Of a stretch of 64,000 nucleotides of DNA, positions 47,621 through 63,307 are shown piece by piece. Numbering within the stretch: position 1 is the stretch's first letter; every line of letters begins with the position of its first letter. Under the pieces are notes generated by a model. The model did not search any database and was not told the origin of the DNA. It was given only the letters and a program-made list of their open reading frames with translations. Origin of the DNA: Candidatus Yonathbacteria bacterium RIFCSPLOWO2_01_FULL_47_33b (GTDB taxonomy: Bacteria > Patescibacteriota > Minisyncoccia > Phycocordibacterales > UBA1550); assembly GCA_001823575.1 (NCBI GenBank), contig MHUW01000016.1, positions 2,099 through 66,098 of the forward strand. The letters are read 5' to 3'. Both the position numbers and the translations under genes were made by a program.

Positions 47621-47631
47621 GGTCTTGGGTC

Positions 47632-48333: not shown

Positions 48334-48457
48334 CCACACATTATACACAATTTTATGCATAAAAAGCAAGCATTTTTGGTTAAGGTTTCATACAATGTGT
48401 GCTATGGTTAAAATACTGGCGTAGTCGAGCCAGTGTAACCAAACTAAACAAACCGCG

Positions 48458-48664: not shown

Positions 48665-48714
48665 CCCAGGGTGAGGTCAATTGAGTAAAATGTGACGGAC
48701 TATTGAGAGCCAAT

Positions 48715-48808
48715 GGAGAAGGAGGAATGATTGAGTTATGACCACTCCCCTACGGCGCTAGAAAGGCACATCTCACTCATAACAAAACCCACTTTCGTGG
48801 GTTTTGTT
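48715..48808. repeat. Copy A of a ~95-bp repeated element (GGAGAAGG..ATGAT...ACGGCG.TAGAAAGGCAC...CTCATAACAAAACCC-hairpin-GGGTTTTGTT)
   Basis: About 75% identical to 50410-50510. Ends in a terminator-like hairpin aaacccac-tttc-gtgggttt. Confidence 0.6.
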
Positions 48809-48903
48809 ATGATTCGACTTCGGACATAAAAAGCGAGATCAAAAAACTTACCTGCTTATAATACTATTTGATTAGATAATTTTTACCTAATCAATATGAT
48901 TCA

Positions 48904-50268
48904 TCAATCAAACAGAGTTGGTTGTTTTATTTTTGTATCGCTGATGTCTTTCTTTACCCCGATTTCTGATTCAAACCACCACTTCAACGGCTGGTATTCG
49001 TCCGTAAGCCCAAAATAAACCATCTTCCCTTTTCTTTCTTTCTCCTCAAGAATGCCGAGATCTTTTAGGGGTTTAAAATAGTACCCAGAAATATTAGAAG
49101 ATTGTTTCCCTAAAATAGTAGATGCCTCTTTCGTACTTATATATTTGTTATTTTTCACAAGAAATGTGAGGATACTTTGCTTCCCTGGCGACAAGTCTGA
49201 CGACACTCTTTCCCAGCGCTCTCGGCCAAGAAGTGTCATTGCTTCATTCATCGACAACGGCTGCACCACGCGATCACTACATTGTCCGAGGATGTCCTTA
49301 ATACCTGTCATGATTGAGCGAATGTCGCCATGATACAGATCGTGCAGTCGAAAAACGACCTCGTCGTCAATCGGCTTAATATACTGTTGAACATTTTTTG
49401 ATTTTAAAAGTTCCATTCTTTTTTCAAAAGCACGCACTACCTCGGTTTTACTCAAAGGTTTCACAACAAGAGGTGTGCGAGTAAAAATACTTTTTACTCG
49501 TTGCTCGGGGGCAATTATTTGACTATAAAAATCTGATGGGCCAAGAAACAAAGAGTACACATCTTTCGTTTGAAGAATGTCTCGGATTTCATTAAAAAAT
49601 GAAATTACCTTTTTCTTGTTATTTTTATCCTTCAAAACAACATCAAAATTGTTTACATGAATAACAAGCCCATAATACTGACGTCCTCCGATTGTTTTTG
49701 TCTTAATAAAACCCAGGAGGTTTAAAAAATGCTGTTCAATTGATGTGGTTGTTAATTTTATAGGTGAGGAGGTGTTTCGTTCTTTACTAAAATTAACCCC
49801 GCCCCCAAAACCAGCGACATCCGCAGAAATACCACCAGAAATTGACATCATTTGGGTAAAATCAATAATAGCATTGAGCTTTGCGAGTGTTGGGTCGGTT
49901 AAAAGCTTCGGCTCTACTAGGGCTATTTCTCGAAGCATCGACCCTATCACCTCCAACAGAAAATTCTGTTTATCCAAGAGTGTGTCCGATGCCTCAATCT
50001 CTCTTCGGCATGAAAAAAGTGGCTTCTCTTTGTCTTGTTTCCAAATAAACTTCTGAAAGTTTGCCAGACTTGTTTTCCCAACACCAGTATCCCCGCACAC
50101 CGTAAGACAAATATTGTTTTCTGACTTAAAAAGACTGCTGAGAAGTTTTCTTTCGTGATCGCGACCAATAAAAGCATCCTCAAGAGAAAGCTCTCCGCCG
50201 TCAACAAGAGGAAGTGTGTCGTATGGGTTTGTTTTCAGCCCGAATTGTTGCCAGCTAATGATTTGCAT
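48904..50268 (-). CDS. AAA+ ATPase, ORC/Cdc6- or STAND-like (Walker A GDTGVGKTS)
   Basis: NPYDTLPLVDGGELSLEDAFIGRDHERKLL then P-loop, the FxGRExE + P-loop arrangement of ORC/Cdc6-like AAA_16 ATPases. C-terminal region is wHTH-like. Confidence 0.55.
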   Translation of the reverse strand: MQIISWQQFGLKTNPYDTLPLVDGGELSLEDAFIGRDHERKLLSSLFKSENNICLTVCGDTGVGKTSLANFQKFIWKQDKEKPLFSCRREIEASDTLLDKQNFLLEVIGSMLREIALVEPKLLTDPTLAKLNAIIDFTQMMSISGGISADVAGFGGGVNFSKERNTSSPIKLTTTSIEQHFLNLLGFIKTKTIGGRQYYGLVIHVNNFDVVLKDKNNKKKVISFFNEIRDILQTKDVYSLFLGPSDFYSQIIAPEQRVKSIFTRTPLVVKPLSKTEVVRAFEKRMELLKSKNVQQYIKPIDDEVVFRLHDLYHGDIRSIMTGIKDILGQCSDRVVQPLSMNEAMTLLGRERWERVSSDLSPGKQSILTFLVKNNKYISTKEASTILGKQSSNISGYYFKPLKDLGILEEKERKGKMVYFGLTDEYQPLKWWFESEIGVKKDISDTKIKQPTLFD

Positions 50269-50409
50269 AATTCTATACTATAGGCTTTTCAAATTCATCT
50301 ATATCTATCTATAATGGCTTATTATAAGGCGAAAAGCAAGTTATCCACAGCTTAAATTTATGTGTAAAAATATATAACTAATAACCATACTGGATTATAG
50401 GGAGCCCGC

Positions 50410-50510
50410 GGAGAAGGGGGGATGATAGGTTGCGACTACTCACCAACGGCGATAGAAAGGCACCCCTCGCTCATAACAAAACCCCACGTAAATATTTACG
50501 CGGGGTTTTG
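50410..50510. repeat. Copy B of the ~95-bp repeated element
   Basis: Aligns to 48715-48808. Hairpin ccccacgtaaata/tttacgcgggg at its 3' end, directly after the stop of the 50516..51016 gene. Confidence 0.6.
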
Positions 50511-50515
50511 TTTAA

Positions 50516-51016
50516 TTACTTCTGCGTCGATTCTTTTTTGTTTATCAAGCGATTATTATTTCTTATTATTTTTTTCAAAATCATTACATTATAGTTAGAC
50601 AATTTTGCAACCAACTGGTTATATGTTCTTTGTTTTTTCTGAGCCTCCTTGTTCAAGTCTTCAATTGAATGATCTAGTAACCGATGAACAAGTTGTATTC
50701 TGAATGAATTAAACTCATTCAACTGAGAAATTATCTCCTTGTCGTCACAATACCGCGAGAAAATACCGATAAGTTGACCGAGTGTTTTTTCTCTTAACTC
50801 CTTTGGTTTTGTTTTTACAAACCTTAACTTACTTTTCTTTAATAATCTCACAAACCATTCTTCTTGATATCCTATAGCATTTTGTAATATATGCTCGATT
50901 ACCGCCAAATATAAATAAGACGCCTCTAGAAAAAAATTATTATTTGTTAGCTCATCAATTCGTGGATCGATATATTCATCCCAGTTTTTATTTCGGTCAT
51001 TCATTAGATTCATCAA
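50516..51016 (-). CDS. Hypothetical protein with HEPN-like R-x4-H motif (FRIQLVH)
   Basis: 166 aa, K/E-rich. Motif R-I-Q-L-V-H is paralogous to R-N-Q-L-L-H in the 52095..52700 protein. Confidence 0.35.
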   Translation of the reverse strand: MMNLMNDRNKNWDEYIDPRIDELTNNNFFLEASYLYLAVIEHILQNAIGYQEEWFVRLLKKSKLRFVKTKPKELREKTLGQLIGIFSRYCDDKEIISQLNEFNSFRIQLVHRLLDHSIEDLNKEAQKKQRTYNQLVAKLSNYNVMILKKIIRNNNRLINKKESTQK

Positions 51017-51025
51017 AGTGGTTAC

Positions 51026-51799
51026 TTACCTACTCGTATACTTCTTATATAACTCAAATAAAAAAATGAATGCAGGAATTATTAGAGTTATGAGTTTAAA
51101 AAATACAAACGATAAGGCTAAGAAAGTTGCAAGAAAAAATACCAAACGGGCTCTTATATAGATCGACGAACTTGATGTATCAATAGCATATCCCCCAACA
51201 AGGTTACGCACTACGGATATCTTTCTTCCCCCGTCAAGATTTAGCTCCTCCATCCGAGCTAGCCCCAAATAACTATATTCAATTGTTGAACTTGCGTATT
51301 CTTTCAATTTTTTTGTCTCCAACTGGAAACACTTTTGAGGTGAATTAAATTCACGATAAATTTCATCAACAGAAAGACCGTTTTGATAGTACAAACGTAC
51401 CGCCATAGAACCAAGTTTATTACTTTTACCAAAATCACTTTTATTTAGGTCGTCTGTGTAGAAAGTAAACGGTACCCCTGGACTATTGCTATCAGCATGA
51501 AAAAACCGAAAACTATTTTTGTTTACTAAACACATTTCATGTTTATTAAAAGGAAGGTAAAGGCTTCCATTTAAAATTTCTTTTATATCTTCCCCGATTG
51601 GTAAATCTATTTTGTTGATTTCCTGATCTATTCCGATACTAAATCCGTCAAGAGGGAATCTCTGATAAACCGGCCAATAAAGGAAGGTGGTTAATACTAG
51701 CGCTAAGGTAGCAGAAATTAAAATTATTAAAGACTTACTATTCCCCGAACCAATTGCAGTTCGCTGGAGTGCCTGCTCATCTTGGTTATTTGAAATCAT
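51026..51799 (-). CDS. Hypothetical membrane protein (N- and C-terminal TM segments)
   Basis: 257 aa. TM near the N-terminus (LIILISATLALVLTTFLYW) and C-terminus (LVFFLATFLALSFVFFKLITLIIPAFIFLF). 10 nt upstream of the HEPN-like gene. Confidence 0.4.
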   Translation of the reverse strand: MISNNQDEQALQRTAIGSGNSKSLIILISATLALVLTTFLYWPVYQRFPLDGFSIGIDQEINKIDLPIGEDIKEILNGSLYLPFNKHEMCLVNKNSFRFFHADSNSPGVPFTFYTDDLNKSDFGKSNKLGSMAVRLYYQNGLSVDEIYREFNSPQKCFQLETKKLKEYASSTIEYSYLGLARMEELNLDGGRKISVVRNLVGGYAIDTSSSSIYIRARLVFFLATFLALSFVFFKLITLIIPAFIFLFELYKKYTSR

Positions 51800-52094
51800 T
51801 ATATGTTTCGATGCGTGTCGGTCTTAAGACCAACCGCTGACTCAGGGGTCAGTATCCAAATTTTATTATCTCCCTATTAGAGGACGCAGAATATATGGAA
51901 AGTTTGTATACTAAATATGTGAACATTAGAACGGTTTTAGGGCGAGAGTAATTCAGACTCAAATACCGTTCGATGGGTATAATATGACATTGGAGCCTCT
52001 TTAGGCCAACAGTTCCCTGTTACAAGTTCAATTCCTTGTAGGGAGTCAAGGGGTTTAATGCTTTCCTTATGGGTACTCTGAACACGGGGGCGCA

Positions 52095-52700
52095 TTATCT
52101 TAACCTTGGCAAGAAGGTGTCATTCAAATAAGTTTCTTTGAAGTTTTCTTTTCCACTTGCAGTAAGGGGTGAATCTAGTTTGTCTAAATAAAATCTCATC
52201 CCTTCAAAAATAAACTGAAAATTCAATATGTGTCTTTTTAGGTTTTCTAAATTTATATTTTGTTTTAACCTAGAATGCCTATTTGTCCTACCATCAAATA
52301 CAGTACTAATTGCGTGACCGTGAAGTAATTGATTGCGCATCGCAGAAAAATCTTTTAAGTTTCCTATTATACTATGGTATCTAGTTGCCTCTCTTAATTC
52401 CTCCTCGCTTGTGAAGTTAAATTTTGAATTATAGATGAACATAATTGTTTTATCTATAAAATTAACAGAATCTACATTCTTTATTATTTCAAATGTATCC
52501 ACATCTTTTTTAATTGACAATAGAGATAAATTTCTAAAAAAAGCATTGAGGCTAACCTCAAGCACTAAATGTAGGCTGATGAATATATCAATCATATCAT
52601 TTGCTGACAAATCAGAGTCCCTGATTAGGATCGAGCATCTTTCTTTGTTTGAGCTAATTAAATAACCTGATTCTGTTCTCATAGAAATTTCTTCATTCAT
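52095..52700 (-). CDS. Hypothetical protein with HEPN-like R-N-x3-H motif (AMRNQLLHGH)
   Basis: 201 aa. The R-N-Q-L-L-H motif fits the Rx4-6H HEPN signature, with the RNxxxH subtype. Confidence 0.35.
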   Translation of the reverse strand: MNEEISMRTESGYLISSNKERCSILIRDSDLSANDMIDIFISLHLVLEVSLNAFFRNLSLLSIKKDVDTFEIIKNVDSVNFIDKTIMFIYNSKFNFTSEEELREATRYHSIIGNLKDFSAMRNQLLHGHAISTVFDGRTNRHSRLKQNINLENLKRHILNFQFIFEGMRFYLDKLDSPLTASGKENFKETYLNDTFLPRLR

Positions 52701-52711
52701 TATTTTTTAAT

Positions 52712-55153
52712 TTAGTTATATATGTAAGTTATGGGAGTTGGTTTATACCACCATACTTCTATCCCCAACGGTTCAAGTTTTTCTTTTAAGACCCTAATAT
52801 TATCGTCAATCAATGACCTGTTTTTACCGTCCAAAGATGCGAATATTAAAACATTAGGTTTTATTTTTTTAGCAAGCTTCAGCGCTTCTTTAAAGTGTTT
52901 TTGTTGGAACAGGTCAGAGTTTTGTTTTATTTCTCCCATAATAAATTTCCCGTCTTGTATGCAGGCAATGTCTAAGTCACCGAGATGCTTTTCTTTTCCT
53001 TTTTTGAGTCGCTGGTGCAAATCTAGGCTAGTGCTGTAGATAAAAGATGAGCGCGCGCTATCGTACAACTCTCCAAGAGTAAGGAGTACGGGTATTAATC
53101 CATGTTGACTTACTCCGTCTTGCACAAGATTATTGAGTCTATAGAACCAAGGCTGTTCAGGTGGAAGATCAAAGACGTTGCCACATCCACGACACTCTGA
53201 TTTTTGCCGAATTTCGTTAATTTGATACCAATTTGAATATCCGCAAAATGGGCAATGTGGCTTAACTCCCACTAATAGAATATTTCGCTCAACCAATTTC
53301 TCAATGTCTTCTTCAATGTCTTCTTTTATTTCTTTGATTCTATTTTTACTCAACTTAATAACCCTGCCTTCTTTTTGAAGTGCTTCTTGCAGTTGTTTTA
53401 TTCGTTCACTCAAAAACACTGAGAATGTAATCTCCCTCCCTAGCTTACCGTGCTCCTTGGAGAGGCGTAGGATGTATTCAGTAAGCCATTTAATTTCGTT
53501 GTTCCTCTCCGCTTTATTTTTAGGGATTGCCTTTAGACTCTTATGCAATTTGTTTGAAATATTTCTTTTTTTTGCCTCCTCATTTGATTTATCGCTAAGA
53601 GCTAACATCTCAAAAACATTCCCCCAGAAAGGTTCTCTAAATTGAGAGAAAGCTGGCCACAGTCCGCCAAATAACCCAACGAGCCCATCGAGGTACCTAC
53701 CCTTATCAGAACGGCTGGTGTTAAAGTATGTCTTATTGTCAATCAAGGAAGCTCGAGGGTCACCTGTGTAGATAGGTCGATTGTGCCCATAAATAAACAA
53801 TCGGATTATATCCCTGTCTTCGGGTATTTTTATTGTTAAGTTTGATTCGTCAGGCCTAAAAGAAGATTTTGTTTCCATCAGAACGCTAGGTATCCCATTT
53901 TTTTGAATACGAGCAATTTTATTAGGGAAAAAACTATGGGCAATGTGGTTTCGATTAGGAAGTCTCCACCAATGTCTAATGTTTGTATAACTGTATCTTT
54001 CGGGCCTATATTGAATATGAACATCTAACATCCAATTACCACCCTGGACACCCTCTGGTAATTGGAGATCATTAATTACTATATTTTCTTCGTTGCTATA
54101 TGCCTGATAGAGCTCCATCCCTTGTCGAACACTGAAGTAGTTCTTATCCAAACCATAGTCTGGGAATACTTGTGTTGGTTTAAGGACCTCTACTCTTTTT
54201 CCAGCCCATACTTTCTCCCCTAAAGAGTCAGCTATTTTTTTCAGCCTCTTTTCTGTAAGTGAGAAACTCACAAATTTAATATATTTTCCATTGTTACTGT
54301 TCCCAACTTGTGCTGCTCTACGTTGAAAATAAAGCTGCAACCCTTCTTTCAGTTTTTCGTCTTCGGCTAATTCTGCAGGAAGCCAGATATGGCAAATATC
54401 AGGGCGTAGCCAATGCGGGACAGAGAGACTCCGATTCCAATAATGAACTAGATCATAGGGTGAATTGCCAACAATAACAGTAAATTGCTCGTTGTCGTGG
54501 TTATACTCAACATCTCTTGCGTTATTTGGGAAAGTAGAAAGTTGTACTGGATAAACTGGATGTTTTTGCATCTTTGATAAGTCGCCTAATGCTACATTAA
54601 TACTTTCTGATGTATCGAGGTTAAAAATTTGTTTGGGGTCAACCTTTTCTCCGATATGTTCAATCATCCATTCGTCATAAGTGCCAAAATTAAAGTGTAC
54701 AAATTGTTTTTGTTTATCATCAGTAATGTTTTTTATATTGAATAACACGAAAGTCGAGGGCTGATAGGCATGTGTAGACGAAAGCCTAGAGATCAAGTCT
54801 TTGGTTGGCTTGTTTATTGAGATATCTTGCCCATATCCGCTTATGTGTTCGTTTGAGTCTTGTGTCTCAACTACATACGGAGACAACCAGTCTTCAATTT
54901 TTTGAAGCAAAACTTTTTCTGGTTTGAGTAAAATTTTGATGACATCAGGGTCGAAATCTTTTAAGAATTCCCATCCTTCGTTGGTCAGATTTTTTCCATC
55001 CGTAAAAACAACTGGATTAAAACGCCCGTTATATTTATTTAAATTAAAATCAAAAATTTTAGAAAAGCTTTCACACGTAAATTCCTTAGGATTAACCAAG
55101 AAAGCGGTTTTAACCGGTCTTTTATTGAAATAAATGGGGTATGGGGTGCTCAT
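52712..55153 (-). CDS. Large hypothetical protein (813 aa) with C-terminal zinc ribbon (CPFC...CRGC) and PD-(D/E)xK-like nuclease motif (LDIACI...GEIK)
   Basis: Motifs read directly. No other recognisable family. A degenerate FTVIVGNSPY motif was noted. First gene of a two-gene module with the 52095..52700 HEPN-like gene. Confidence 0.45.
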   Translation of the reverse strand: MSTPYPIYFNKRPVKTAFLVNPKEFTCESFSKIFDFNLNKYNGRFNPVVFTDGKNLTNEGWEFLKDFDPDVIKILLKPEKVLLQKIEDWLSPYVVETQDSNEHISGYGQDISINKPTKDLISRLSSTHAYQPSTFVLFNIKNITDDKQKQFVHFNFGTYDEWMIEHIGEKVDPKQIFNLDTSESINVALGDLSKMQKHPVYPVQLSTFPNNARDVEYNHDNEQFTVIVGNSPYDLVHYWNRSLSVPHWLRPDICHIWLPAELAEDEKLKEGLQLYFQRRAAQVGNSNNGKYIKFVSFSLTEKRLKKIADSLGEKVWAGKRVEVLKPTQVFPDYGLDKNYFSVRQGMELYQAYSNEENIVINDLQLPEGVQGGNWMLDVHIQYRPERYSYTNIRHWWRLPNRNHIAHSFFPNKIARIQKNGIPSVLMETKSSFRPDESNLTIKIPEDRDIIRLFIYGHNRPIYTGDPRASLIDNKTYFNTSRSDKGRYLDGLVGLFGGLWPAFSQFREPFWGNVFEMLALSDKSNEEAKKRNISNKLHKSLKAIPKNKAERNNEIKWLTEYILRLSKEHGKLGREITFSVFLSERIKQLQEALQKEGRVIKLSKNRIKEIKEDIEEDIEKLVERNILLVGVKPHCPFCGYSNWYQINEIRQKSECRGCGNVFDLPPEQPWFYRLNNLVQDGVSQHGLIPVLLTLGELYDSARSSFIYSTSLDLHQRLKKGKEKHLGDLDIACIQDGKFIMGEIKQNSDLFQQKHFKEALKLAKKIKPNVLIFASLDGKNRSLIDDNIRVLKEKLEPLGIEVWWYKPTPITYIYN

Positions 55154-55178
55154 ATCAAAACTCTATCATTTTTAGTTC

Positions 55179-56292
55179 TTTTAAAGAGAGTTAATTAACA
55201 AATAGTGTTGGTGTCATTTCCAAAAGAGCAAGGTGAAACCTTGCTCTTTTCCGCATTTGGAACACAATTATGGAATGACCATCCATAATCACACAAAAAA
55301 AACGCTGTTTGAGATGCAAGAAGAGGATGATTCGCTGGGGATCAACCAAGCAAGGAAAGCAAAGATTTAGGTGTGCAGAATGCCTGCACACAGGGATCAA
55401 AAAACGTCCTGATACGGAGGAAAAGAATCGAGAGATTTTGTTTGAACGATGGCTACTAAAAACGGAGACCCTCGAACGACTGGCTCATGCGCGCCACACC
55501 AAGCCGTCAGCATTAGTGAAGTCATTTAGTAATTTTTGGAGCAAGGAGATTGAACCGCTGCCCTACCAAGGGAATGGTCGCATCCTGATTGTTGACGGCA
55601 TCATCATTGAGCGGGGCGCTTGTGTCCTCATTGCGATTGACGGAGAGGGTATCCCCATCACATGGCTGTCGTGCCGAAGAGAAAATTTTGACAGTTGGAT
55701 TCGACTGTTTGAGTTGGCAAAAAGGGAGGGGGTTCGCAGTCCCTCAGTCATCATCTCAGACGCGCAAAAAGGCTTGCTGGGGGCGATGAAGTGGGAATTC
55801 CCTTTAACTCCCCACCAACGATGCCTCACGCACGTTGTTCGTCTTGCTCAGGCATGGCTTACCAGAAATCCAAAAACAATTGCTGGGCAAGATCTGCGCT
55901 TGTTGGTTGGCACATTGTATGGAATTAAAACGAGAGACGATGCTTTGTTCTTCACGAAACAATTTGATGCATGGAAAACAAAGCATCATCATTTTCTCAA
56001 AGAGATGAGCCTCTTTCCTGAAACAAAAAGACGATGGTACACCCATCGTCGACTGCGGGGAGTGAGGTCGCTTCTCATAGGTGCTCTCCCTAACATTTTT
56101 ACCTTTCTGGAAATCCCTGATACGCCAAGAACAACCAATCAACTTGAGGGAGGGGTGAACAGTCCGATCAAGGCTCTTTTGAGGCATCATCGTGGCATGT
56201 CGACAGCCCACCGACAAGCACTTGTTTTTCGTTTTTTGCGAGCGCGACAGAAGAAGAAATACCAACACTAAATGTTAATTAACCCTTTAAAG
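55179..56292 (+). mobile_element. IS1595-family insertion sequence (~1.1 kb) with ~19-21-bp imperfect terminal inverted repeats
   Basis: IRL ttttaaagagagttaattaac (55179-55199). IRR gttaattaaccctttaaag (56274-56292). Single transposase ORF inside. Confidence 0.6.
55309..56271 (+). CDS. IS1595-family (ISXO2-like) DDE transposase with N-terminal zinc ribbon
   Basis: N-terminal CxxC...CxxC (RFRCAECLHTG). DDE-type core (LIVDGIIIERG, VIISDAQKG). Length 320 aa. Confidence 0.55.
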   Translation: MRCKKRMIRWGSTKQGKQRFRCAECLHTGIKKRPDTEEKNREILFERWLLKTETLERLAHARHTKPSALVKSFSNFWSKEIEPLPYQGNGRILIVDGIIIERGACVLIAIDGEGIPITWLSCRRENFDSWIRLFELAKREGVRSPSVIISDAQKGLLGAMKWEFPLTPHQRCLTHVVRLAQAWLTRNPKTIAGQDLRLLVGTLYGIKTRDDALFFTKQFDAWKTKHHHFLKEMSLFPETKRRWYTHRRLRGVRSLLIGALPNIFTFLEIPDTPRTTNQLEGGVNSPIKALLRHHRGMSTAHRQALVFRFLRARQKKKYQH

Positions 56293-56594
56293 AACAGGGC
56301 CAATTTATTCTACAACCCCTCCATAAGCGTTCCTTAAACCATCCTTGAACCTTCCTATAACCGACCAGGAACCAACCCGCTACCGTCTGTAAGCCATCTG
56401 GGAACCGACACTTTGTTTATCCTTATACTGTCCTATAAGCGACCCATAACCGACTTAGAGGGATTTGACCGTATTTAAAACCGCGTACAATCGGTTGTGC
56501 TGGGCGGAATACGTTGAGAGGTAAAATGGTACTACTTCGACTATCAACTATGGTTTACGAAAGGACTAGAGGGTGATAAGAAGGGGCTTAGTGT

Positions 56595-57230
56595 TTATGG
56601 ATTAAGGTTTCCAACATTATCATCTAAGGGTGGAGGGAGATCTAATGGGTCAAGGAGCTTAAATGAGTTATCTTCCCACAAGAAATAGTATGGGCGGACT
56701 TCGACAAGGTCTCGTCCTGGTGGATTTGTACAGCCTGTTTCTTTAGCTATTTTTTTAATTAACCAAAGAGGGTCGACAATAAGGAGGTTGCTATCTTTTT
56801 TATATTCAAAACCCATATTGGCAACATAGGGGAATGGGTACGCTTTGCCCGTGTTAGTATCTACGACTGCGAGCTCGTTACCAATCCCTGTGAAGCCCCA
56901 TTCTGCAATGACATAGTGCCCTGCAAAGTTTACATCATTTTTTAATGCCTCGTTGATCGTTGTCTTAAATCTGCGAGCAATGAAACTACTGTTGAGGTCT
57001 AATGGTGCTGTTGCCCCCGTAAAGATGTCTTCTGGTGGGTACTGTTCAAAAGTTGTAAAAGGTTTTTCATTGCCCCAGTTGGTAGCTATTTCGTCGGAAC
57101 ATTGGATATCAAAGGATTCGCTAGTAGTTTTCTCTTTATAGCGCAAACCCAAAAACATAATCCCAACAATAGACAGAGCCAGGCACACAATAGCTGTTTC
57201 GTTGATTGTAGGATGTTTCTTAAATTTCAT
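56595..57230 (-). CDS. Hypothetical secreted/membrane-anchored protein
   Basis: Signal anchor MKFKKHPTINETAIVCLALSIVGIMFLG is paralogous to the N-terminus of the next gene. Confidence 0.4.
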   Translation of the reverse strand: MKFKKHPTINETAIVCLALSIVGIMFLGLRYKEKTTSESFDIQCSDEIATNWGNEKPFTTFEQYPPEDIFTGATAPLDLNSSFIARRFKTTINEALKNDVNFAGHYVIAEWGFTGIGNELAVVDTNTGKAYPFPYVANMGFEYKKDSNLLIVDPLWLIKKIAKETGCTNPPGRDLVEVRPYYFLWEDNSFKLLDPLDLPPPLDDNVGNLNP

Positions 57231-57246
57231 ATTTTTATAGATAGAG

Positions 57247-57900
57247 TTACTGCTTATCTTCCACCTCAATATAGCCAATTTGTTGCTCAAAGATGGGAAC
57301 AAATAGACCATTTTTATAGACAAATCGTGTTCTGGTATTTCCCGTTGCACAGCACCTCCCTCCTGGAAAATCCTCATTTTTGTACCAGTTAGCATAAAAA
57401 CCATTGAGGGTTGCTGTGGAGTCTATCCAACCCCCATCTGTCACAAGTGTAAAGATAACTTTGCCACCCTTTACTACTTCTTGCCGATCAGGGCAGTGAT
57501 TTGCCCCATCAGAGCAAATACTAACTATTCGTTCCTTGTTCCCGTCGTTATCTACATCAAAGTAAGCAGCGTCAGAACTAACCTCCCCATCTTTTAGCAG
57601 TTGTTCAGTAGTGGAAGCCTGGTGTTTTTCGTTAGAATAAGAATCATTAGAAATTGTTATGACTGTCGTCGGATATGAGCGAGACTCTACCTCGCCTGAA
57701 AATTGTGCCCAAGTGTCGGTTCCACCGAGCCACCCACCTTCAGGGAAGTATTTTAAGGGGAAGTTCAGTGTCTGTTTGTCTGTCTCTTTTTCTAATTTTT
57801 GAGTTGAAGTCTTTTGTGTGTACAAAAAAGTTAAGACAATAAGAAGTAACACTGAGCAAGCGATGGCCGTCTCATTAAGTTTTAGATATTTTTTGAGCAT
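57247..57900 (-). CDS. Hypothetical secreted/membrane-anchored protein (paralogous N-terminus)
   Basis: Signal anchor MLKKYLKLNETAIACSVLLLIVLTFLY. Confidence 0.4.
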   Translation of the reverse strand: MLKKYLKLNETAIACSVLLLIVLTFLYTQKTSTQKLEKETDKQTLNFPLKYFPEGGWLGGTDTWAQFSGEVESRSYPTTVITISNDSYSNEKHQASTTEQLLKDGEVSSDAAYFDVDNDGNKERIVSICSDGANHCPDRQEVVKGGKVIFTLVTDGGWIDSTATLNGFYANWYKNEDFPGGRCCATGNTRTRFVYKNGLFVPIFEQQIGYIEVEDKQ

Positions 57901-57913
57901 ATTTAGGAGTTAT

Positions 57914-58831
57914 TTATCTTTTAGCGCAAACTCTTCCGTAAAGACCATCGTAGCAGTGAATTTGATAGGAGCTTCCGTCTGGCGTATGAGCCGTTCCGAA
58001 ATCTGTGTTTAGTTCATCCATGCGAAATTCTATTTTTTGAGGGAACGAACTTGGTGCATTTGTAGGGACAGACAGGTCTTGCAGTAAGGGTCTTTGCATG
58101 TAATCACTCAAACTGCTAGCCCCACTGTAGTTTATACTTTGACTCGTCGGAGTATCGATATGCAAAGATCTGTTTGGGCGATATGAATCATCGACAGCAG
58201 AAGATGCTTGGATCCGTGCGATTTCCATCTGTATCTCAAGTGTGCAGTACTCATCAAGGCATTCGTTACCCTTGAAGGTAAGGTTTTTCTTTACTGTAAC
58301 TTGATTCTTTTCGGTTGCTAATAATTCTTGGTGTGCGAAATACAGACGATCGGCCGTATCTCCTTTGTGTTGGTCGAAGTTTTCCCACCACTTATCATCT
58401 AGTTGTTTGTATGCCGACCCTTCTCCTGTGCCATACTTAGGGTCGTATTTTTTGTATGTTTTGAAAAACTTGATTACCTTATCCTTAGCTTCTGGGTTTA
58501 AAATTTTGTATCCCTCGTCGGCAAGCACCAATCTTTCCCAGAGTAACACATCTTCTTTTTTAGCCTTTATTTTGGCTTCTTGTTCTTCAAGTTCCCTCAT
58601 CTCTTTGTCTGTAAGAAAATCTGGTGCAGTGAAACTATTTTCAGGTTTCATAGTTTCTTCGTCGGGCTTAAACCCATCAAGGCTTTGGGATGAAATCGGT
58701 TCCATAGTTTTCGGAGGTACTACGACTGTTTGCTTAAAAAAGTTCCAACTAAAAGGGTTCCACCAAGATGCGTAGCTTACTGTTGGATAGGCGAATGTTA
58801 TGAGTATCGCTGTAAATAAAATCTTTTTCAT
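57914..58831 (-). CDS. Hypothetical secreted protein
   Basis: Cleavable signal peptide MKKILFTAILITFAYPTVSYA. W/K/E-rich. Confidence 0.45.
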   Translation of the reverse strand: MKKILFTAILITFAYPTVSYASWWNPFSWNFFKQTVVVPPKTMEPISSQSLDGFKPDEETMKPENSFTAPDFLTDKEMRELEEQEAKIKAKKEDVLLWERLVLADEGYKILNPEAKDKVIKFFKTYKKYDPKYGTGEGSAYKQLDDKWWENFDQHKGDTADRLYFAHQELLATEKNQVTVKKNLTFKGNECLDEYCTLEIQMEIARIQASSAVDDSYRPNRSLHIDTPTSQSINYSGASSLSDYMQRPLLQDLSVPTNAPSSFPQKIEFRMDELNTDFGTAHTPDGSSYQIHCYDGLYGRVCAKR

Positions 58832-59020
58832 ATCTCTGTGTTAATTTCGGCTTAAGACAAAGGTGGTAACCCCCAGTGCCATAAATAACCCACCACCAAT
58901 CACTGCGCCAAGAGATGATCCGCTATCTATGCTTGCAAATATACCCAGAAAAACCGCCCAAACTCCAATGAGTATTGATAAACTCCCTAGAATTTTTGTG
59001 AATGTGTTCATATTTTTATT

Positions 59021-59761
59021 TTAAGTTCTACTTTGGTTATGGACAACCGAGTTATCCGCATTACCTCCTTCGTGTCGTCGTTTCCATCGATCTTTGTTCT
59101 CTTGTGTGTGCGTTATGCAGTTTTCGTCTGTGCAATTAACAGCAAGGCATTTTGCGCAAAGAGGTTCGTCGCAGAGGCATATTTTTGTAGAGCCTGAATT
59201 TTTAGTATTTTTTAAACTATCAACGAGGTTTTGCAAATCTCTATAGAAACTATAACCCCAGAGCACTTTATCTGTTTCTCTTAAGGTGCCTAGATTAAAT
59301 TGTTTTTGTATCGCAAGACACCACCCTCGGTACTCGAAGTATTTTTCTGGTGTCCAGTTGTCTGGGTTTATCTTTATTTCTTCTTCATTATAAATATCTT
59401 TGATTGAATCTACGGCTCGATAGTCAGCAATAGTAAAGTCTTTAGGGAAGCAAACAGACAAAACAGCAGAAGCAATGGGTATCCCTATCCCATCGATATC
59501 AGTAAGTAGTGCTAGTCTTTCTTTGTCGTCCTTTGTTTTAAAAATATCATTTGTTAGTTCTTCGATAGATTTCTTCGATTTCAAAATACCCTTTAAAACT
59601 TTCGTTTTTGACCTGTTGGATTTCCAAATTATGATTGAAAAAAATTCTTGTTCAGTTAGGCTTTTGTTGGATTTAAAATTCTCACTAATCTCATTAAAAA
59701 GATACTCTTCTAAAGAATAGTATTGTTCGTAGGTGTTTAAATTTTCTATAGTTTTTTGCAT
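59021..59761 (-). CDS. Hypothetical protein with helix-hairpin-helix motif (LTDIDGIGIPIASAVL) and C-terminal Cys cluster
   Basis: HhH GIG motif read directly. CLCDEPLCAKCLAVNCTDENC cluster at the C-terminus. Start set at MQKTIENL. Confidence 0.35.
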   Translation of the reverse strand: MQKTIENLNTYEQYYSLEEYLFNEISENFKSNKSLTEQEFFSIIIWKSNRSKTKVLKGILKSKKSIEELTNDIFKTKDDKERLALLTDIDGIGIPIASAVLSVCFPKDFTIADYRAVDSIKDIYNEEEIKINPDNWTPEKYFEYRGWCLAIQKQFNLGTLRETDKVLWGYSFYRDLQNLVDSLKNTKNSGSTKICLCDEPLCAKCLAVNCTDENCITHTQENKDRWKRRHEGGNADNSVVHNQSRT

Positions 59762-59948
59762 ACAAAAAGCCCACCACATGAGTAACGACCGAAATCGTTC
59801 ATACAAGTTTCCCTGTATGGCCCGGAAAGACAACCCCATATGATGGGTTTTTTACGTCTTTCCGGGACTTTTTCGCCATGCCACTGATTACTCAAGGGTT
59901 TAGGCTACTTCTTTATTCAGTTGTACTTAAATCCTAACAGTTTTACGG

Positions 59949-60752
59949 TTGAATGGGAAGAAATCTGGTTTTTACGTTGTTTTTGGTATGATTACTACAA
60001 TGAGTGACAATCTGCACAGAAACATAGACTGGGATAAATTAAATAAAGTTCTCGCAAAAGAAGGAACAATTAAAGAAGAACTTTCTGGGGAACTTTTTAA
60101 TCTAGCAGATGGTATCAGTCCTGCTTACCGTAAAAATTTGACCACCAGAGAAATTCAGCTTGGCTTCTTCATTGCAGGAAGCACAACAAAAGAAACAATC
60201 GAGGATGAAGCTGTTGGGAATATTAAATTAACATATTTAGAGAGTCTTCAAAAAAGCAACATCATTGAATTTGTAAAACCAAAAACGACACGCGGGGACG
60301 AGTCTGGGAATAACGACATCTTCTTTCACTCTGCTGAAATAGTTTTTTACCCCAACAAACTCATGGGCTTCCTAAAAAAAGACCTCTCTTCTTTTGGTCA
60401 AAAAGTAGACCAATTAGCCTACTCTGAGCATGGCATTGGGTTCTTATCACTGAATGGGCAGAAGGTCCAAATTGGTTCTGACAAAAATATCAATTTCAAA
60501 CTACTAGAAACATTGTGTCCATTTGGTGAAGAAAAAGCGATGGAGACTGTATTCAGAGCCACGACCACCAGTAGATCAAAACATATAAATTCAAACTTAT
60601 CTCCCCTAGAAAAGCAAGGGGTTCTTCGTATGAGGATTAAAGAATTGCAGGACATACTCAAAAAAGAGGGTGTAAGGGTAACCTTAGGGTTTAACCACAA
60701 AGCAGGAACAGTCTACTTAAAAGAAAAGGAAGAGGGAGTGGAGGGGAAATAG
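59949..60752 (+). CDS. Hypothetical protein (267 aa)
   Basis: Clean ORF in the AT-rich element. No family recognised. Confidence 0.35.
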   Translation: MNGKKSGFYVVFGMITTMSDNLHRNIDWDKLNKVLAKEGTIKEELSGELFNLADGISPAYRKNLTTREIQLGFFIAGSTTKETIEDEAVGNIKLTYLESLQKSNIIEFVKPKTTRGDESGNNDIFFHSAEIVFYPNKLMGFLKKDLSSFGQKVDQLAYSEHGIGFLSLNGQKVQIGSDKNINFKLLETLCPFGEEKAMETVFRATTTSRSKHINSNLSPLEKQGVLRMRIKELQDILKKEGVRVTLGFNHKAGTVYLKEKEEGVEGK

Positions 60753-61026
60753 CGGGGATCTCCCCCGATATTAAGAAGGTAAAAAAACGAGCCTTATAAA
60801 GTTAGGTTCGTTTTTTTATTTTTCCTATCACCTAAAAAGTTATTGACATCAAAAAAGAGGTTTTGGTCAGATATCACTATGTCATCGACAAGTGAGGCCA
60901 AAAACAAAAAACAACCCTTGGACGAGGCAGTTGATTTGTTTGCTTCTATTATGGTCTCACTCATCGATGAGGTGGGTTTAGCAAAAAAAGAATCGCAAAG
61001 AGTCATCAGTAATTTATCCAACAATA

Positions 61027-61524
61027 ATGGAACCAATCAAAAAAATAATAGAGTCCTACCAACTCAACTCTAGTCCACGCTCACAAGGGGGTGCGAACAG
61101 GCAAGAGCCAGAATACGAGCAAGCTTTTACGAGACCTGCGGACTTCTCTGATAAACAGACAACATATTGCACTGTTTACAACGGACTTACTCCAAGATTT
61201 GATTTAACACCAATTGAAATTCTTGTCCTAGCGATGACAATAGGGCTTTCAAGGAAAAATAAACCCTGCATAGCCAGTCAATTGACGTTTGCGAGTACAT
61301 TCAATGTGTCCGACCCGACAGCACAAGAGGCATTAAAACGCTTAGAGAAGAAGGGCGTAATAGAGAGGACAGGTAGATTAAGTAGATACCGTACACACGA
61401 ATTAGTGTTAACCAAACAGGCAAGTGATTACTTGAGAAATTTGCAGGCGCAAATCAAACTCAAAAAAATACACAACGAAGAAGAGCGTAATCGGTCTAAA
61501 GATTCTTTAGATAATAATTATTAA
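61027..61524 (+). CDS. Winged-helix DNA-binding protein (possible regulator/directionality factor of the adjacent recombinase)
   Basis: IEILVLAMTIGLSRKNKPCIASQLTFASTFNVSDPTAQEALKRLEKKGVIERTG is wHTH-like. Directly upstream of the serine recombinase. Confidence 0.4.
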   Translation: MEPIKKIIESYQLNSSPRSQGGANRQEPEYEQAFTRPADFSDKQTTYCTVYNGLTPRFDLTPIEILVLAMTIGLSRKNKPCIASQLTFASTFNVSDPTAQEALKRLEKKGVIERTGRLSRYRTHELVLTKQASDYLRNLQAQIKLKKIHNEEERNRSKDSLDNNY

Positions 61525-61680
61525 TAATAAAGAATTAAATTTAACCTTCTTTATTTAAATAATTATTGTACCAAGTTTCTTTAGATGTGAGTTTGAGTTT
61601 CTTTATAGGTGCTCCTGCGAATGCGGATAACTCAGGTTGTCCTCTACAAGGTCGGAATATATTATTAAAAGCAAAGCATT

Positions 61681-63264
61681 ATGAAAAAAGAAAAAATTGC
61701 CGTGGGGTATTGTAGGGTTAGTACTGATGACCAAGCAGACAATGGACTTTCCCTTGATTACCAAGAGAAGCAATGTAAAAAATCAGCAAAAGAGGATGGG
61801 TATGAAAAAGTGACCATAATTAGAGATGAAGGTAAAAGTGGAACAAGTATAACCAAGAGGCCGGGGATGCGAGAAATAATACAAATGACTGAGAACAGCG
61901 AAATATCCGCTGTGTATGTAACCCACTCTGACCGTCTAGCACGCAGTGTGGTAGATCATTCTCTCATCAGAAATATATTCCGCAAGAATGGAGTAACTCT
62001 AAAATATCTCAACGGGCAATCCTCTGGCGATGACGCCTCTTCAATCGTTGCTGATAACATGTTCGCGGCTTTCAATCAGTACCATAGCGACAACACCAGA
62101 GAAAAAACAAAACAGGCTACAGACTCAAAAGCAAGAGCGGGGTACTTCCCCACTCACGCCCCTACGGGCTACATCAACGTCGCAAACCCTGACAAGAATT
62201 GTGAGAAAGTTGCAAAAAGAATTATTGTACCAAACCCTAAAACATCACCCCTCGTAACTGAGGCTTTTAATTCGTACGCAACAGGAAGATACAATGCATA
62301 CGAACTCAATGACCTACTGTATGAAAAAGGTTTAACCACAAACGCTAACAAAAAACTTACGCACAGCATGTTTTATGTGATGCTAAAAAACAGACTATAT
62401 CTTGGAGAAATCCACTGGCAGAGTATCCACATTAAAGAAGGCAAGCACGAGCCTCTCATTGATGAGGCGACTTTCAATCAAGTACAAAAAGTTATGTTAG
62501 AAAAATCTGGTAGTCGCTGTCGTCGAAGAAAATACTTCTGGCTTCTTAATGGATATGTTTTCTGCCCTGTTCATAACCGCAGGTTTACAGCAGAATGGCA
62601 CTTACCCAAAGGAAAGGCATACTATCACTGCCCGAACAAGAGTGGGTGTGGAAAATATATTGAGAAATCGGAACTTGAAAATCAAGTTGCGGAAAAATTC
62701 AAGGATCTACAATTCGACCCCACCTTTGTGGAATCCATTATTGAAAAAGTTAGGGCTACTTTTCAAGGAAGGAGAAAGGATTATGACTCCAAACAAAGGA
62801 CACTGATCAATCAAAAGAATGCGTGGGGAGCGAAACGCAAAGTCGCAGAAGACCGTCTGCTCGACCTTACCATTTCTAAAGAAGCCTATACTCGCATAGT
62901 TGATGAAATAGACTCTGCTATCAGTAGTTTGGACGACAAACTAGGGCAACTCAAAAAGGATAAGGATATCGACATTGAGCGAGCCGACGAGGTGCTTGGC
63001 TTCACCCAAGACCTCTACGGCACTTATATGAGCGCACCAGAGGCTCTACAGAAGCTTTTTATAGACTTCTTCTTTGACGGATTTGATGTCGTTGATGGGG
63101 TTATAATAAAAACGCGATACCGTCCATTATTTGAGGAATTAATGCGACTAAAAGTCATTACTTACAAAACACCGAAACTACAAAAACCCGTTGATAACGA
63201 AGGAAAGTCCTCGGTTATAATAAACCCACAATTGGGTGGCTACTGGGAATTGAACCCAGATTGA
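61681..63264 (+). CDS. Large serine recombinase (resolvase catalytic domain + recombinase domain + zinc ribbon + coiled coil)
   Basis: N-terminal VGYCRVSTDDQ with SDRLAR. Zinc ribbon CPVHNRR...CPNKSGCGKY. 527 aa. The last 30 nt overlap the tRNA-His 3' end. Confidence 0.85.
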   Translation: MKKEKIAVGYCRVSTDDQADNGLSLDYQEKQCKKSAKEDGYEKVTIIRDEGKSGTSITKRPGMREIIQMTENSEISAVYVTHSDRLARSVVDHSLIRNIFRKNGVTLKYLNGQSSGDDASSIVADNMFAAFNQYHSDNTREKTKQATDSKARAGYFPTHAPTGYINVANPDKNCEKVAKRIIVPNPKTSPLVTEAFNSYATGRYNAYELNDLLYEKGLTTNANKKLTHSMFYVMLKNRLYLGEIHWQSIHIKEGKHEPLIDEATFNQVQKVMLEKSGSRCRRRKYFWLLNGYVFCPVHNRRFTAEWHLPKGKAYYHCPNKSGCGKYIEKSELENQVAEKFKDLQFDPTFVESIIEKVRATFQGRRKDYDSKQRTLINQKNAWGAKRKVAEDRLLDLTISKEAYTRIVDEIDSAISSLDDKLGQLKKDKDIDIERADEVLGFTQDLYGTYMSAPEALQKLFIDFFFDGFDVVDGVIIKTRYRPLFEELMRLKVITYKTPKLQKPVDNEGKSSVIINPQLGGYWELNPD

Positions 63265-63307
63265 GAGTTCCACAAACTCTAGTGTTAACCATTACACCAT
63301 AGCCACC
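63235..63307 (-). tRNA. tRNA-His (anticodon GUG) with encoded G-1
   Basis: Hand-folded: G-1; acceptor GTGGCTA/TAGCCAC; D-stem GTGT/ACAC; anticodon stem AGAGT/ACTCT with loop TTGTGGA; T-stem CTGGG/CCCAG with loop TTCAATT; discriminator C. Confidence 0.8.

What the first reader, a model, noticed from the sequence alone, without database searches (positions are those of the whole stretch)
61681..63307. Large serine recombinase ORF terminates inside tRNA-His; integrated element boundary
The 527-aa serine recombinase (VGYCRVSTDDQ catalytic domain plus zinc ribbon) is encoded on the + strand. Its last ~10 codons (..GGYWELNPD) are encoded by the 3' acceptor/T-arm of the convergent tRNA-His(GUG) gene at 63235-63307. 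Integrative elements that target tRNA genes typically reconstitute the tRNA 3' end from element DNA. The AT-rich block from about 47.2 kb to 63.26 kb contains a TA module, ATPase, HEPN-like modules, an IS1595 and secreted proteins. It is therefore best explained as an island or prophage-like element integrated at tRNA-His. A wHTH gene (61027-61524) sits just upstream as a possible directionality factor or repressor.
Basis: partly seen in the sequence, partly recalled or inferred. Interest (0 to 1): 0.6.

Follow-up and report, generated by a model that had tools for sequence, protein, structure and literature searches.

The report
Serine integrase gene fused to tRNA-His
This is the right-hand junction of a 16-kb mobile island inserted at the tip of a tRNA-His gene by a serine integrase whose own last codons form half of its attachment site, a layout shared by more than 100 relatives in Patescibacteria that target tRNA genes, which is rare for this enzyme class.

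Summary
A 527-aa large serine recombinase (LSR) ORF (61681-63264, +) ends 30 nt inside the convergent tRNA-His (63235-63306, -). A low-GC block (0.39 against 0.48 and 0.51) runs from about 47.15 kb to the tRNA.

The overlap is a family trait. Relatives of 33-74% identity in Patescibacteria also read into the 3' ends of tRNA-His, -Asn and -Phe genes and of tRNA genes holding group I introns, always in the same register.

A minority read instead into a non-tRNA arm. That arm mirrors the conserved motif in the ORF's last codons (GTTATAAT, coding V-I-I) and carries a T-loop-like TT(A/C)GAAC exactly 5 bp further out than the tRNA's own T-loop. This is the known attP/attB geometry of serine integrases.

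So attP lies in the gene's 3' end. The crossover is predicted at GT 63236-63237 (tRNA nt 72-71). The element restores at most about 3 nt of the tRNA. The last 9 codons are host tRNA DNA.

No attL, empty site or circular form was found, and the island is fixed in its population. Two closely related genomes carry different cargo at the same tRNA-His.

The element also carries a LOOT RNA, which recurs in about half of the related loci searched. I rate it a new variant of a known kind.

The parts
61681..63264 (+). Large serine recombinase gene (527 aa). The catalytic Ser lies in VGYCRVSTDDQ. The last ~10 element-derived codons double as the P half of the attachment site, and the final 9 codons plus stop are tRNA-His DNA.
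   Evidence: TP901-1 catalytic domain; A118 integrase C-terminal domain matched to residues 216-436; AlphaFold model; residues 499-527 have pLDDT <50; phrog_95 integrase, E 6e-77; 490 homologues
63235..63307 (-). tRNA-His(GTG), intact, including G-1 at 63307. It is the host (B') half of the junction. Nucleotide 73 is at 63235.
63214..63221 (+). P-arm motif GTTATAAT (codes V-I-I), at -21..-14 from tRNA nt 73. It is conserved at the DNA level across the family and is the inferred binding motif for the zinc-ribbon domain (half-site positions about 16-23).
   Evidence: 26 loci: G17/T22/T21/A23/T17/A25/A15/T20; geometry compared with Rutherford 2013
63236..63237 (+). Predicted crossover dinucleotide GT (tRNA nt 72-71), uncertain by about 1-2 nt.
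   Evidence: This is the dyad centre between the P and P' motifs in attP-like junctions. It also fits the point where tRNA-type and attP-type relatives stop being identical. Inferred, not shown.
63248..63255 (+). T-loop/T-stem of the tRNA read on the + strand (AATTGAAC). It matches the P' motif TT(A/C)GAAC but lies 5 bp closer to the crossover, which is attB-type spacing.
61027..61524 (+). wHTH protein (165 aa), conserved just upstream of the recombinase in relatives. It resembles the wHTH domain of replication initiators.
   Evidence: HTH_36 and others, all below cut-off; 27-47% identical in L099, L101, L010, L100
59949..60752 (+). 267-aa ORF of unknown function, first gene of the + strand module. 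An ORF of similar size sits in the same position in relatives, but its sequence is not detectably conserved.
59784..59906 (-). LOOT RNA (Rfam RF03000, 83 bits), 22 nt upstream of the 246-aa gene on the - strand. It marks the point where the cargo strand and the recombinase module diverge.
59021..59761 (-). 246-aa gene directly downstream of LOOT. It is conserved in L011 (38%) and L183 (55%).
47144..63234 (.). Low-GC island (0.392), about 16.1 kb. The left edge is set only by the GC shift and the end of core genes (ackA start at 47143). No attL was recognised.
47234..48369 (-). Cargo: 128-aa ORF plus an HTH-Panacea (SocA-like) antitoxin-type protein, a probable toxin-antitoxin pair.
48904..50268 (-). 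Cargo: 454-aa P-loop NTPase. The nSTAND1 match covers the N-terminus only and is marginal.
55187..56286 (+). Insertion sequence inside the island. It has 26-nt inverted repeats, a TTAAAG target duplication and a 320-aa Mutator/IS256-type transposase.

Best explanation
The finding is the attR junction of an integrative element of about 16 kb. The element entered the 3' tip of the host tRNA-His gene through its own large serine recombinase.

In this recombinase family the attachment site attP sits inside the 3' end of the recombinase gene:
- The left (P) arm is the last ~10 codons and includes the motif GTTATAAT, which codes V-I-I.
- The crossover is a dinucleotide that matches tRNA nt 72-71 (GT at 63236-63237 here).
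- In the unintegrated form the ORF continues into the right (P') arm, which carries a mirror-image motif ..GTTAGAAC.

The host site attB is the tRNA 3' end. Its T-loop (..TTCGAAC on this strand) supplies the same motif 5 bp closer to the crossover. This is how serine integrases tell attB from attP.

Integration therefore joins the P arm to the tRNA. The tRNA stays intact because at most about 3 nt at its tip (plus the trailer) come from the element and are identical to what they replace. The recombinase ORF loses its own tail and instead ends after 9 codons of tRNA DNA.

What is shown: the overlap, the family-wide pattern, the motif positions, the 5-bp shift, and the variable cargo at a conserved host site.
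What is inferred: that the non-tRNA junctions are genuine attP sites, the exact crossover, and that this recombinase moved this island.

The island shows no recognisable left attachment site and is present in every sampled contig of its population. It may no longer be mobile.
For: Enzyme. The protein has canonical LSR domains and fold.

Family pattern. Relatives read into tRNA genes as follows:
- tRNA-His: window, L014, L101/L102, L182, L183.
- tRNA-Asn: L016, L106, L107, L110, L113, L116.
- tRNA-Phe: L103.
- tRNA genes split by a group I intron that starts right after the ORF stop: L011, L100, L015, L017, L111.
. The register is always the same, with nt 73 at codon position 1, giving D/E-S-N tails in 53 of 120 proteins.

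attP-like junctions. In L090, L092, L099, L109, L112, L120 and L181 the sequence is identical to the tRNA-type junction only through offsets 0-2..5. It then carries TT(A/C)GAAC (TTCAGAAA in L109) at offsets 19-25 in 7 of 7 loci, against 14-20 for the tRNA T-loop. P0116/L179 has the same type of tail at the protein level (..LNEVRTCI), but its DNA junction was not aligned. This equals the 5-bp shift of the zinc-ribbon motif between attP (bp 16-24) and attB (bp 11-19) shown for Listeria integrase (PMC3783163). The P-arm motif at -21..-14 mirrors the P' motif about offsets 1-2.

Close pairs. L112 (attP-like) and L110/L111 (tRNA-Asn) share DNA up to GGCTCC and then diverge. L090 reads TTGGGTGCC|GTCGTGG.., against TTGGGTGCC|TACTGG.. 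in L182.

Hot spot. The window, L182 and L183 have recombinases 69-74% identical, fused to tRNA-His next to syntenic host genes, with different cargo.

Composition. GC is 0.392 inside the block against 0.482 and 0.512 outside.

No repeat. There is no duplicate of the tRNA 3' half, as expected for a 2-bp core.
Against: - No attL (B-O-P') was found in the window or within 10 kb upstream in any related locus.
- No empty site and no circular form were found. All 14 contigs read that carry the identical adenosyltransferase, and all 12 that carry the identical ackA, have the island wherever they reach it.
- The attP-like junctions all lie in larger, apparently chromosomal contigs, not in free circles. 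Two of them sit upstream of a second element that is itself fused to a tRNA (L181, L115). How an intact attP comes to lie there is unresolved.
- The dyad centre falls on a base rather than between two, so the crossover is uncertain by 1-2 nt.
- The related sequences are not independent samples, so the 7 of 7 count overstates the statistical weight.
Confidence: 0.72

Rival explanations
1. Classical tRNA island. The element carries its own copy of the tRNA acceptor/T-arm. The crossover lies deep in the tRNA, so the ORF tail GGYWELNPD is element DNA, and a displaced tRNA fragment marks the other end.
For: This is the usual design of tRNA-targeting islands with tyrosine integrases (PMC4383910). 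An LSR-driven case with a 20-bp repeat exists at the Dehalococcoides tmRNA gene (PMC3146451).
Against: No second copy of any part of the tRNA 3' half exists in the window (39 nt with up to 3 mismatches; short-word BLAST; core search). attP-like relatives share only 3-9 nt with the tRNA end and then diverge. The acceptor-stem base at offset 4 co-varies with the 5' strand, which is certainly host DNA: GTGGCTA/TAGCCAC in the window against GTGCCTA/TAGGCAC in L182.
Confidence: 0.07
2. Accreted array. The 16-kb low-GC block is not one element but several generations of insertions at tRNA-His. Only the right-hand module (LOOT, 267-aa ORF, wHTH, LSR; about 59.0-63.24 kb) belongs to the current recombinase, and older elements have lost their recombinases. 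This is compatible with the main explanation for the junction itself.
For: Tandem arrays exist in relatives. L181 has two elements, each with its own LOOT and LSR. L115 has a second LSR next to tRNA-Asn. No attL lies at the GC boundary. The block holds an IS insertion and repeated intergenic elements.
Against: No remnant of a second recombinase or of an internal P-O-P' junction is present in the block. The gene layout, with cargo on the - strand up to LOOT and the module on the + strand, matches single elements in relatives.
Confidence: 0.3
3. Immobile relic or domesticated recombinase. The gene is kept for another role, or is simply not yet decayed, and the overlap with the tRNA is a frozen accident with no current function.
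For: The island is present in every sampled contig. No attL was found. The relative L090 has an N-terminally truncated copy lacking the catalytic serine.
Against: The ORF is intact, with all family-invariant residues. The same junction geometry recurs in many lineages with different cargo, which needs repeated recent integration.
Confidence: 0.2
4. Chance read-through. An ordinary gene that happens to lack a stop codon before the neighbouring tRNA.
For: Compact genomes often have overlapping convergent genes.
Against: The same register and the same distance (21 nt from GTTATAAT to tRNA nt 73) occur in 26 loci spanning 33-74% identity and at least three tRNA species.
Confidence: 0.01

Closest known systems
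Phage large serine integrases with solved attP/attB logic (Listeria A118/LI integrase, TP901-1, Bxb1, phiC31)
   Same: Same domain order: resolvase catalytic domain, recombinase domain, and zinc ribbon with a coiled-coil insert. Short att sites with a tiny core. The zinc-ribbon motif lies 5 bp closer to the centre in attB than in attP.
   Different: Only about 28% identical to A118 integrase, the best phage hit. The target is the 3' tip of tRNA genes, with the universal T-loop acting as the attB motif. attP lies inside the integrase ORF, so the protein's tail changes on integration. The hosts are Patescibacteria.
Dehalococcoides ssrA genomic islands (DsiB, a CcrB-like serine recombinase)
   Same: A serine recombinase that integrates islands at the 3' end (T-loop region) of a tRNA-like gene. 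Tandem islands and accretion occur downstream of the target.
   Different: [quoted passage not shown] A second small serine recombinase (DsiA) is encoded alongside. The target is tmRNA only. Here no repeat and no partner recombinase are present, several different tRNAs are used, and the ORF overlaps the target.
tRNA-targeting islands with tyrosine integrases (Islander-type signature)
   Same: Integrase gene next to the tRNA 3' end, an intact tRNA after insertion, and a variable island at a conserved site.
   Different: A different enzyme family and chemistry. Those elements carry a long tRNA fragment and leave a displaced copy, and this one does not. In 2014 serine integrases were stated not to be known to target tRNA genes (PMC4383910).
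Elements whose attP lies inside a gene so that integration alters the product (SSV1-type archaeal integrases; integration-dependent immunity of mycobacteriophages BPs/Brujita). Recalled from my own knowledge, not checked here.
   Same: Integration changes the C-terminus of an element-encoded protein because the crossover lies within its coding sequence.
   Different: Those cases use tyrosine integrases. In the mycobacteriophage case the altered protein is the repressor and the effect (loss of a degradation tag) is demonstrated. Here the swapped tail is predicted disordered and no effect is shown.

Membership tests
Large serine recombinase (serine integrase) | N-terminal resolvase-type catalytic domain with the serine nucleophile | tested here: met
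   PF00239, E 1.5e-30, residues 7-154. S14 lies in YCRVSTDDQ. R12 and V13 are invariant and S14 and T15 nearly invariant in the family. The TP901-1 catalytic domain matches at 9e-13.
Large serine recombinase (serine integrase) | Recombinase domain followed by a zinc ribbon with an inserted coiled coil | tested here: met
   PF07508 at 5.5e-12. PF13408 scores 23.7 bits, just under its 25.3 cut-off. Four invariant Cys (C280, C295, C317, C323). The A118 integrase C-terminal domain aligns to residues 216-436. The AlphaFold model has long helices at 347-394 and 400-423.
Large serine recombinase (serine integrase) | attP and attB with mirror-image half-sites, and the zinc-ribbon motif 5 bp nearer the centre in attB | tested here: met
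   By comparison only. P motif at -21..-14, P' motif at 19..25 in 7 of 7 attP-like junctions, and the tRNA T-loop motif at 14..20. Reference geometry.
Large serine recombinase (serine integrase) | Catalyses attP x attB integration, with excision needing a directionality factor | not testable with these tools
   No empty site, circle or attL was found. No directionality factor can be recognised from sequence.
Classical tRNA-gene island (tDNA plus displaced tDNA fragment) | Direct repeat of the tRNA 3' part at the far end of the island | tested here: not met
   No match to the 39-nt tRNA 3' half at up to 3 mismatches. No significant short match. TTGGGTG occurs on the + strand between 40 kb and 63.3 kb only at the junction itself.
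Prophage | Virion, packaging or lysis genes | tested here: not met
   Pfam, PHROG and PADLOC scans of the larger island ORFs give no structural or lysis hit. A protein-based scan of viral contigs found no relative of the recombinase. Small ORFs were not scanned.
Dehalococcoides-type ssrA island | 20-bp repeat of the target 3' end, and a paired small serine recombinase (DsiA) next to the large one | tested here: not met
   No repeat. No second resolvase-domain ORF in 47-63 kb.
LOOT RNA (Rfam RF03000) | Score above the curated gathering threshold over the full model | tested here: met
   83.1 bits against a threshold of 46.4, model positions 1-121. Eleven further copies in ten related loci.
   The transposase matches Transposase_mut (4e-10) and MULE (4.8e-8). 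The only Zn_ribbon_IS1595 hit is weak and lies in a different 813-aa protein.

The most novel reading that the evidence does not exclude
A clade of Patescibacterial serine integrases uses the universal tRNA T-loop as the attB zinc-ribbon motif. This would let lineages hop between tRNA species by changing only the inner half-site. These integrases also keep attP inside their own coding sequence, so integration swaps the protein's C-terminal tail. The tail swap, and possibly the second exactly conserved GTTATAATAAA copy 114 bp upstream and the element's LOOT RNA, would act as a built-in switch. The switch would tell the enzyme whether it is in the free or the integrated state, by changing its stability, activity or directionality.
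Probability: 0.15. Interest if true: 0.8.

Novelty: new variant of a known kind. Interest (0 to 1): 0.62.

Why it matters
Serine integrases are prized genome-engineering tools. They are textbook examples of enzymes that do not use tRNA genes as targets; a 2014 database paper says so outright. The only tRNA-like precedent I found is the tmRNA islands of Dehalococcoides.

This family would add three things:
- A large, natural set of integrases (more than 100 sequences) aimed at several different tRNAs. Their att sites can be read directly from the end of each gene, which is useful for mining new site specificities.
- A clear natural illustration of the 5-bp attP/attB rule.
- A first look at how small, streamlined Patescibacteria acquire islands that carry toxin-antitoxin, NTPase and unknown cargo.

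It also gives the orphan LOOT RNA motif a genomic home.

Tried and rejected
- **Duplicate of the tRNA 3' half, or of the core, in the window:** none found.
- **P'-like arm at the left GC boundary.** The consensus search found nothing. Looser motif scans gave only hits inside genes or with the wrong spacing. A peptide-level look-alike at 47462 (..IRVTDNFRTV..) lies antisense inside the 128-aa gene and lacks the core, so I rejected it. A 13-nt match of 47178-47190 to the L112 P' region (E 0.02) has no GT core at the right distance and no counterpart in other loci, so I rejected it as chance.
- **attL within 10 kb upstream in 18 related loci:** none credible. The best hit (L101 position 365) lies inside an ORF whose sequence looks like a peptidase motif by eye.
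- **Empty sites.** Exact look-ups of the flanking adenosyltransferase and ackA proteins returned only occupied contigs.
- **Scans cut short.** The viral-contig scan found no relative.
- **Circularity of short attP-like contigs:** no terminal overlaps.
- **Rfam at relaxed threshold over 46.9-52.3 kb:** nothing credible.
- **Literature:** the nine full-text searches turned up no description of this family or of what LOOT RNA does.
Full report
**1.

ORF 61681..63264 (+) encodes 527 aa. It has Pfam Resolvase, Recombinase and a near-threshold Zn_ribbon_recom domain. It matches the TP901-1 catalytic domain and the A118 integrase C-terminal domain among solved structures. It hits the PHROG integrase family at 6e-77. 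The AlphaFold model has the expected fold with a long coiled coil.

tRNA-His(GTG) lies on the opposite strand at 63235..63306, with G-1 at 63307. The ORF's last nine sense codons and its stop (GGT GGC TAC TGG GAA TTG AAC CCA GAT TGA) are the reverse complement of the tRNA's discriminator, acceptor 3' strand and T-arm.

GC falls from 0.482 (1-47143) to 0.392 (47144-63233) and rises to 0.512 beyond the tRNA (profiles). The left flank is core metabolism: phosphoketolase and acetate kinase. The right flank is a cobalamin adenosyltransferase homologue followed by cation efflux and ribosomal protein L19.

**2. The overlap is a family trait**

A protein search returned 490 homologues. The named ones come from Patescibacteria (Yanofskybacteria, Nomurabacteria, Minisyncoccia and others).

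Among the best 120, 53 end in peptides that translate a tRNA T-arm in one fixed register (..DSNP....SNLRP....SNQRP..). Most of the other 61 unclassified tails stop a few codons into the tRNA (..LGA..LRG..LPG).

At the DNA level the ORF reads into:
- tRNA-His in L014, L101/L102, L182 and L183;
- tRNA-Asn in L016, L106, L107, L110, L113 and L116;
- tRNA-Phe in L103.

In L011, L100, L015, L017 and L111 no tRNA was called. A group I intron starts right after the ORF stop on the opposite strand, flanked by tRNA exons. These targets are therefore intron-containing tRNA genes.

In all 26 aligned loci a DNA motif GTTATAAT (coding V-I-I) sits exactly 21 nt before tRNA nucleotide 73, and nt 73 is always at codon position 1.

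**3. A second kind of ORF end reveals the attachment site**

In L090, L092, L099, L109, L112, L120 and L181 (first recombinase) the ORF does not enter a tRNA. P0116/L179 has the same type of tail at the protein level, but I did not align its DNA junction.

In the seven aligned loci, the sequence after the shared P arm matches the tRNA end only for 3-9 nt. For example, L090 reads TTGGGTGCC|GTCGTGGAGGATGTTAGAAC, against TTGGGTGCC|TACTGGGAATCGAACCC in L182 and TTGGGTGGC|TACTGGGAATTGAACCC in the window. L112 reads GGCTCC|ACCTT.., against GGCTCC|GCGGCC.. in its 92%-identical relatives L110 and L111.

In all seven a motif TT(A/C)GAAC (TTCAGAAA in L109) lies at offsets 19-25 from nt 73. It is the reverse complement of the P-arm motif, placed symmetrically about offsets 1-2. 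The tRNA's own T-loop gives the same motif at offsets 14-20, exactly 5 bp closer.

Rutherford et al. (PMC3783163) showed for Listeria integrase that the zinc-ribbon motif occupies half-site bp 16-24 in attP and bp 11-19 in attB. With the crossover at offsets 1-2, the motifs found here fall on those same positions.

I therefore read the non-tRNA junctions as P-O-P' (attP-like) and the tRNA junctions as P-O-B' (attR). The crossover falls at GT 63236-63237 (tRNA nt 72-71), give or take one or two nucleotides. The conserved peptide motifs V-I-I, D-S-N and V-R-T are simply translations of these DNA-binding motifs.

**4. Consequences for the finding**

- The tRNA is not rebuilt from an element-borne copy of its 3' half. 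At most about three nucleotides plus the trailer come from the element. This explains why no repeat of the tRNA exists anywhere in the window.
- The nine tRNA-encoded codons are host DNA that replaced the element's own tail.
- That tail region (residues 499-527) is predicted disordered. The simplest reading is that the swap is a harmless by-product of placing attP at the very end of the gene.
- A regulatory role remains possible but untested.

**5. The tRNA-His site is a hot spot**

L183 (recombinase 69% identical) has the same host flank: adenosyltransferase 78% identical, then cation efflux. L182 (74% identical) has L19, pseudouridine synthase, PilM, tRNA-binding protein and RuvX, as in the window's own contig.

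Both relatives have the recombinase fused to tRNA-His, but the cargo differs:
- L183: reverse transcriptase, DnaJ, an AAA_25 helicase-like protein.
- L182: SNF2 helicase, RNase T-like exonuclease.
- Window: toxin-antitoxin-like pair, P-loop NTPase, an 813-aa protein, secreted-looking proteins and an IS.

**6. What could not be shown**

- No attL was found at the left GC boundary or elsewhere.
- None was found in 18 related loci.
- All contigs carrying the identical flanking proteins are occupied.
- No circular contig was seen.
- The attP-like junctions lie within larger contigs. In L181 the first element is followed by a second one with its own LOOT RNA and a divergent serine recombinase fused to tRNA-Asn. 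In L115 a second recombinase lies next to tRNA-Asn. These are tandem or composite arrays, and the order of events that leaves an intact attP inside them is unresolved.
- In L090 an attP-like junction lies 3.7 kb from a tRNA-His that is not fused to any recombinase.

The window's island may therefore be a single 16-kb element with an eroded left end, or an accreted array. Its present mobility is unknown.

**7. Architecture of the element**

Cargo genes run on the - strand from the left edge up to a LOOT RNA (59784-59906, -; 83 bits). LOOT sits 22 nt upstream of a conserved 246-aa gene.

From there a + strand module runs: 267-aa ORF, wHTH protein, recombinase. The wHTH protein is conserved upstream of the recombinase in relatives. 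It resembles the DNA-binding domain of replication initiators more than a repressor.

LOOT recurs in L010, L011, L092 (twice), L100, L110, L179, L180 and L181 (twice), and the same region is conserved in L183. It was not found in about half of the other loci searched.

**8. Comparison with what is known**

The enzyme is a bona fide large serine recombinase, but only about 28% identical to the nearest phage integrase, A118.

Serine integrases were stated not to be known to target tRNA genes (PMC4383910). The nearest precedent I found is the Dehalococcoides tmRNA islands, which differ in having a 20-bp repeat and a partner recombinase. My literature searches found no description of this family.

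I rate it a new variant of a known kind: a known enzyme class and known att logic, combined with a new target class, an att site embedded in the enzyme's own coding end, and a new host phylum.

Noticed in passing
window 59784-59906 (-); L010 1-120; L011 8223-8344; L092 8014-8133 and 13806-13922; L100 7504-7625; L110 2862-2985; L179 7617-7738; L180 4993-5123; L181 3427-3557 and 9238-9365: The orphan LOOT RNA motif (RF03000) is a frequent part of these elements. In most loci it lies 1.7-2.5 kb upstream of the recombinase; in the second elements of L092 and L181 it lies 4-5 kb upstream. It is usually on the opposite strand. In the window it sits directly 5' of a conserved 246-aa gene. No function for LOOT turned up in the literature I could search.
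   Followed up: partly
L011 11577-11761; L100 11591-11839; L015 11516-11707; L017 11508-11728; L111 11522-11737 (all - strand): Several target tRNA genes in relatives are split by group I introns, which is why ARAGORN missed them. The recombinase still reads into their 3' exon.
   Followed up: partly
window 63100-63110 and 63214-63224: The exact 11-mer GTTATAATAAA occurs twice in the recombinase gene, 114 bp apart. One copy codes the conserved DGVIIK and the other is the P-arm motif. The upstream copy is conserved at synonymous positions and at the same distance (-135) in 10 of 26 loci. This hints at a DNA-level constraint such as an accessory binding site, but AT-rich codon bias could also explain it.
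   Followed up: partly
window 55187-56286: An insertion sequence inside the island, with 26-nt inverted repeats, a TTAAAG target duplication and a 320-aa Mutator/IS256-type transposase with an N-terminal zinc ribbon.
   Followed up: yes
window 48735-48790 and 50429-50484: A 56-nt direct repeat (84% identical), each copy overlapping a terminator-like hairpin. The two copies flank the P-loop NTPase gene.
   Followed up: no
window 51837-51954; L183 608-725 and 1976-2053: A conserved non-coding element with core GTCAGTATCCAAAnnnTATTATC. It lies between cargo genes next to a hairpin, once in the window and twice in the related island of L183.
   Followed up: partly
window ~52010-52060 (+): A sequence that looks like a tRNA T-arm plus acceptor 3' strand (..CAAGTTCAATTCCTTGTAGGGAGTCA) lies in the long intergenic region 51800-52094. 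Neither ARAGORN nor Rfam calls it, even at the relaxed threshold.
   Followed up: partly
L181 5495-7120 and 13453-15078; L115 2942-4036 and 11913-12905; L180 7061-8686: Tandem or composite arrays. An upstream recombinase with an intact attP-like site is followed by a second element whose own, divergent serine recombinase is fused to tRNA-Asn. L180 has the same first element followed by a different element with a tyrosine integrase and a primase. L180 and L181 stay identical until 387 nt past the first recombinase's stop.
   Followed up: partly
L090 10001-11584 and 15335-15409: A syntenic relative has an N-terminally truncated recombinase with an attP-like tail. A tRNA-His that is not fused to any recombinase lies 3.7 kb downstream in the same orientation. 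The stretch between them holds cargo including a Tad4-family protein and a methyltransferase.
   Followed up: partly
L183 11552-11560 against 11615-11623: In L183 the tRNA-His acceptor stem has a G4-U69 wobble (3' strand GTGACTA against 5' strand TAGCCAC). The window and L182 have compensatory G-C and C-G pairs at this position.
   Followed up: no
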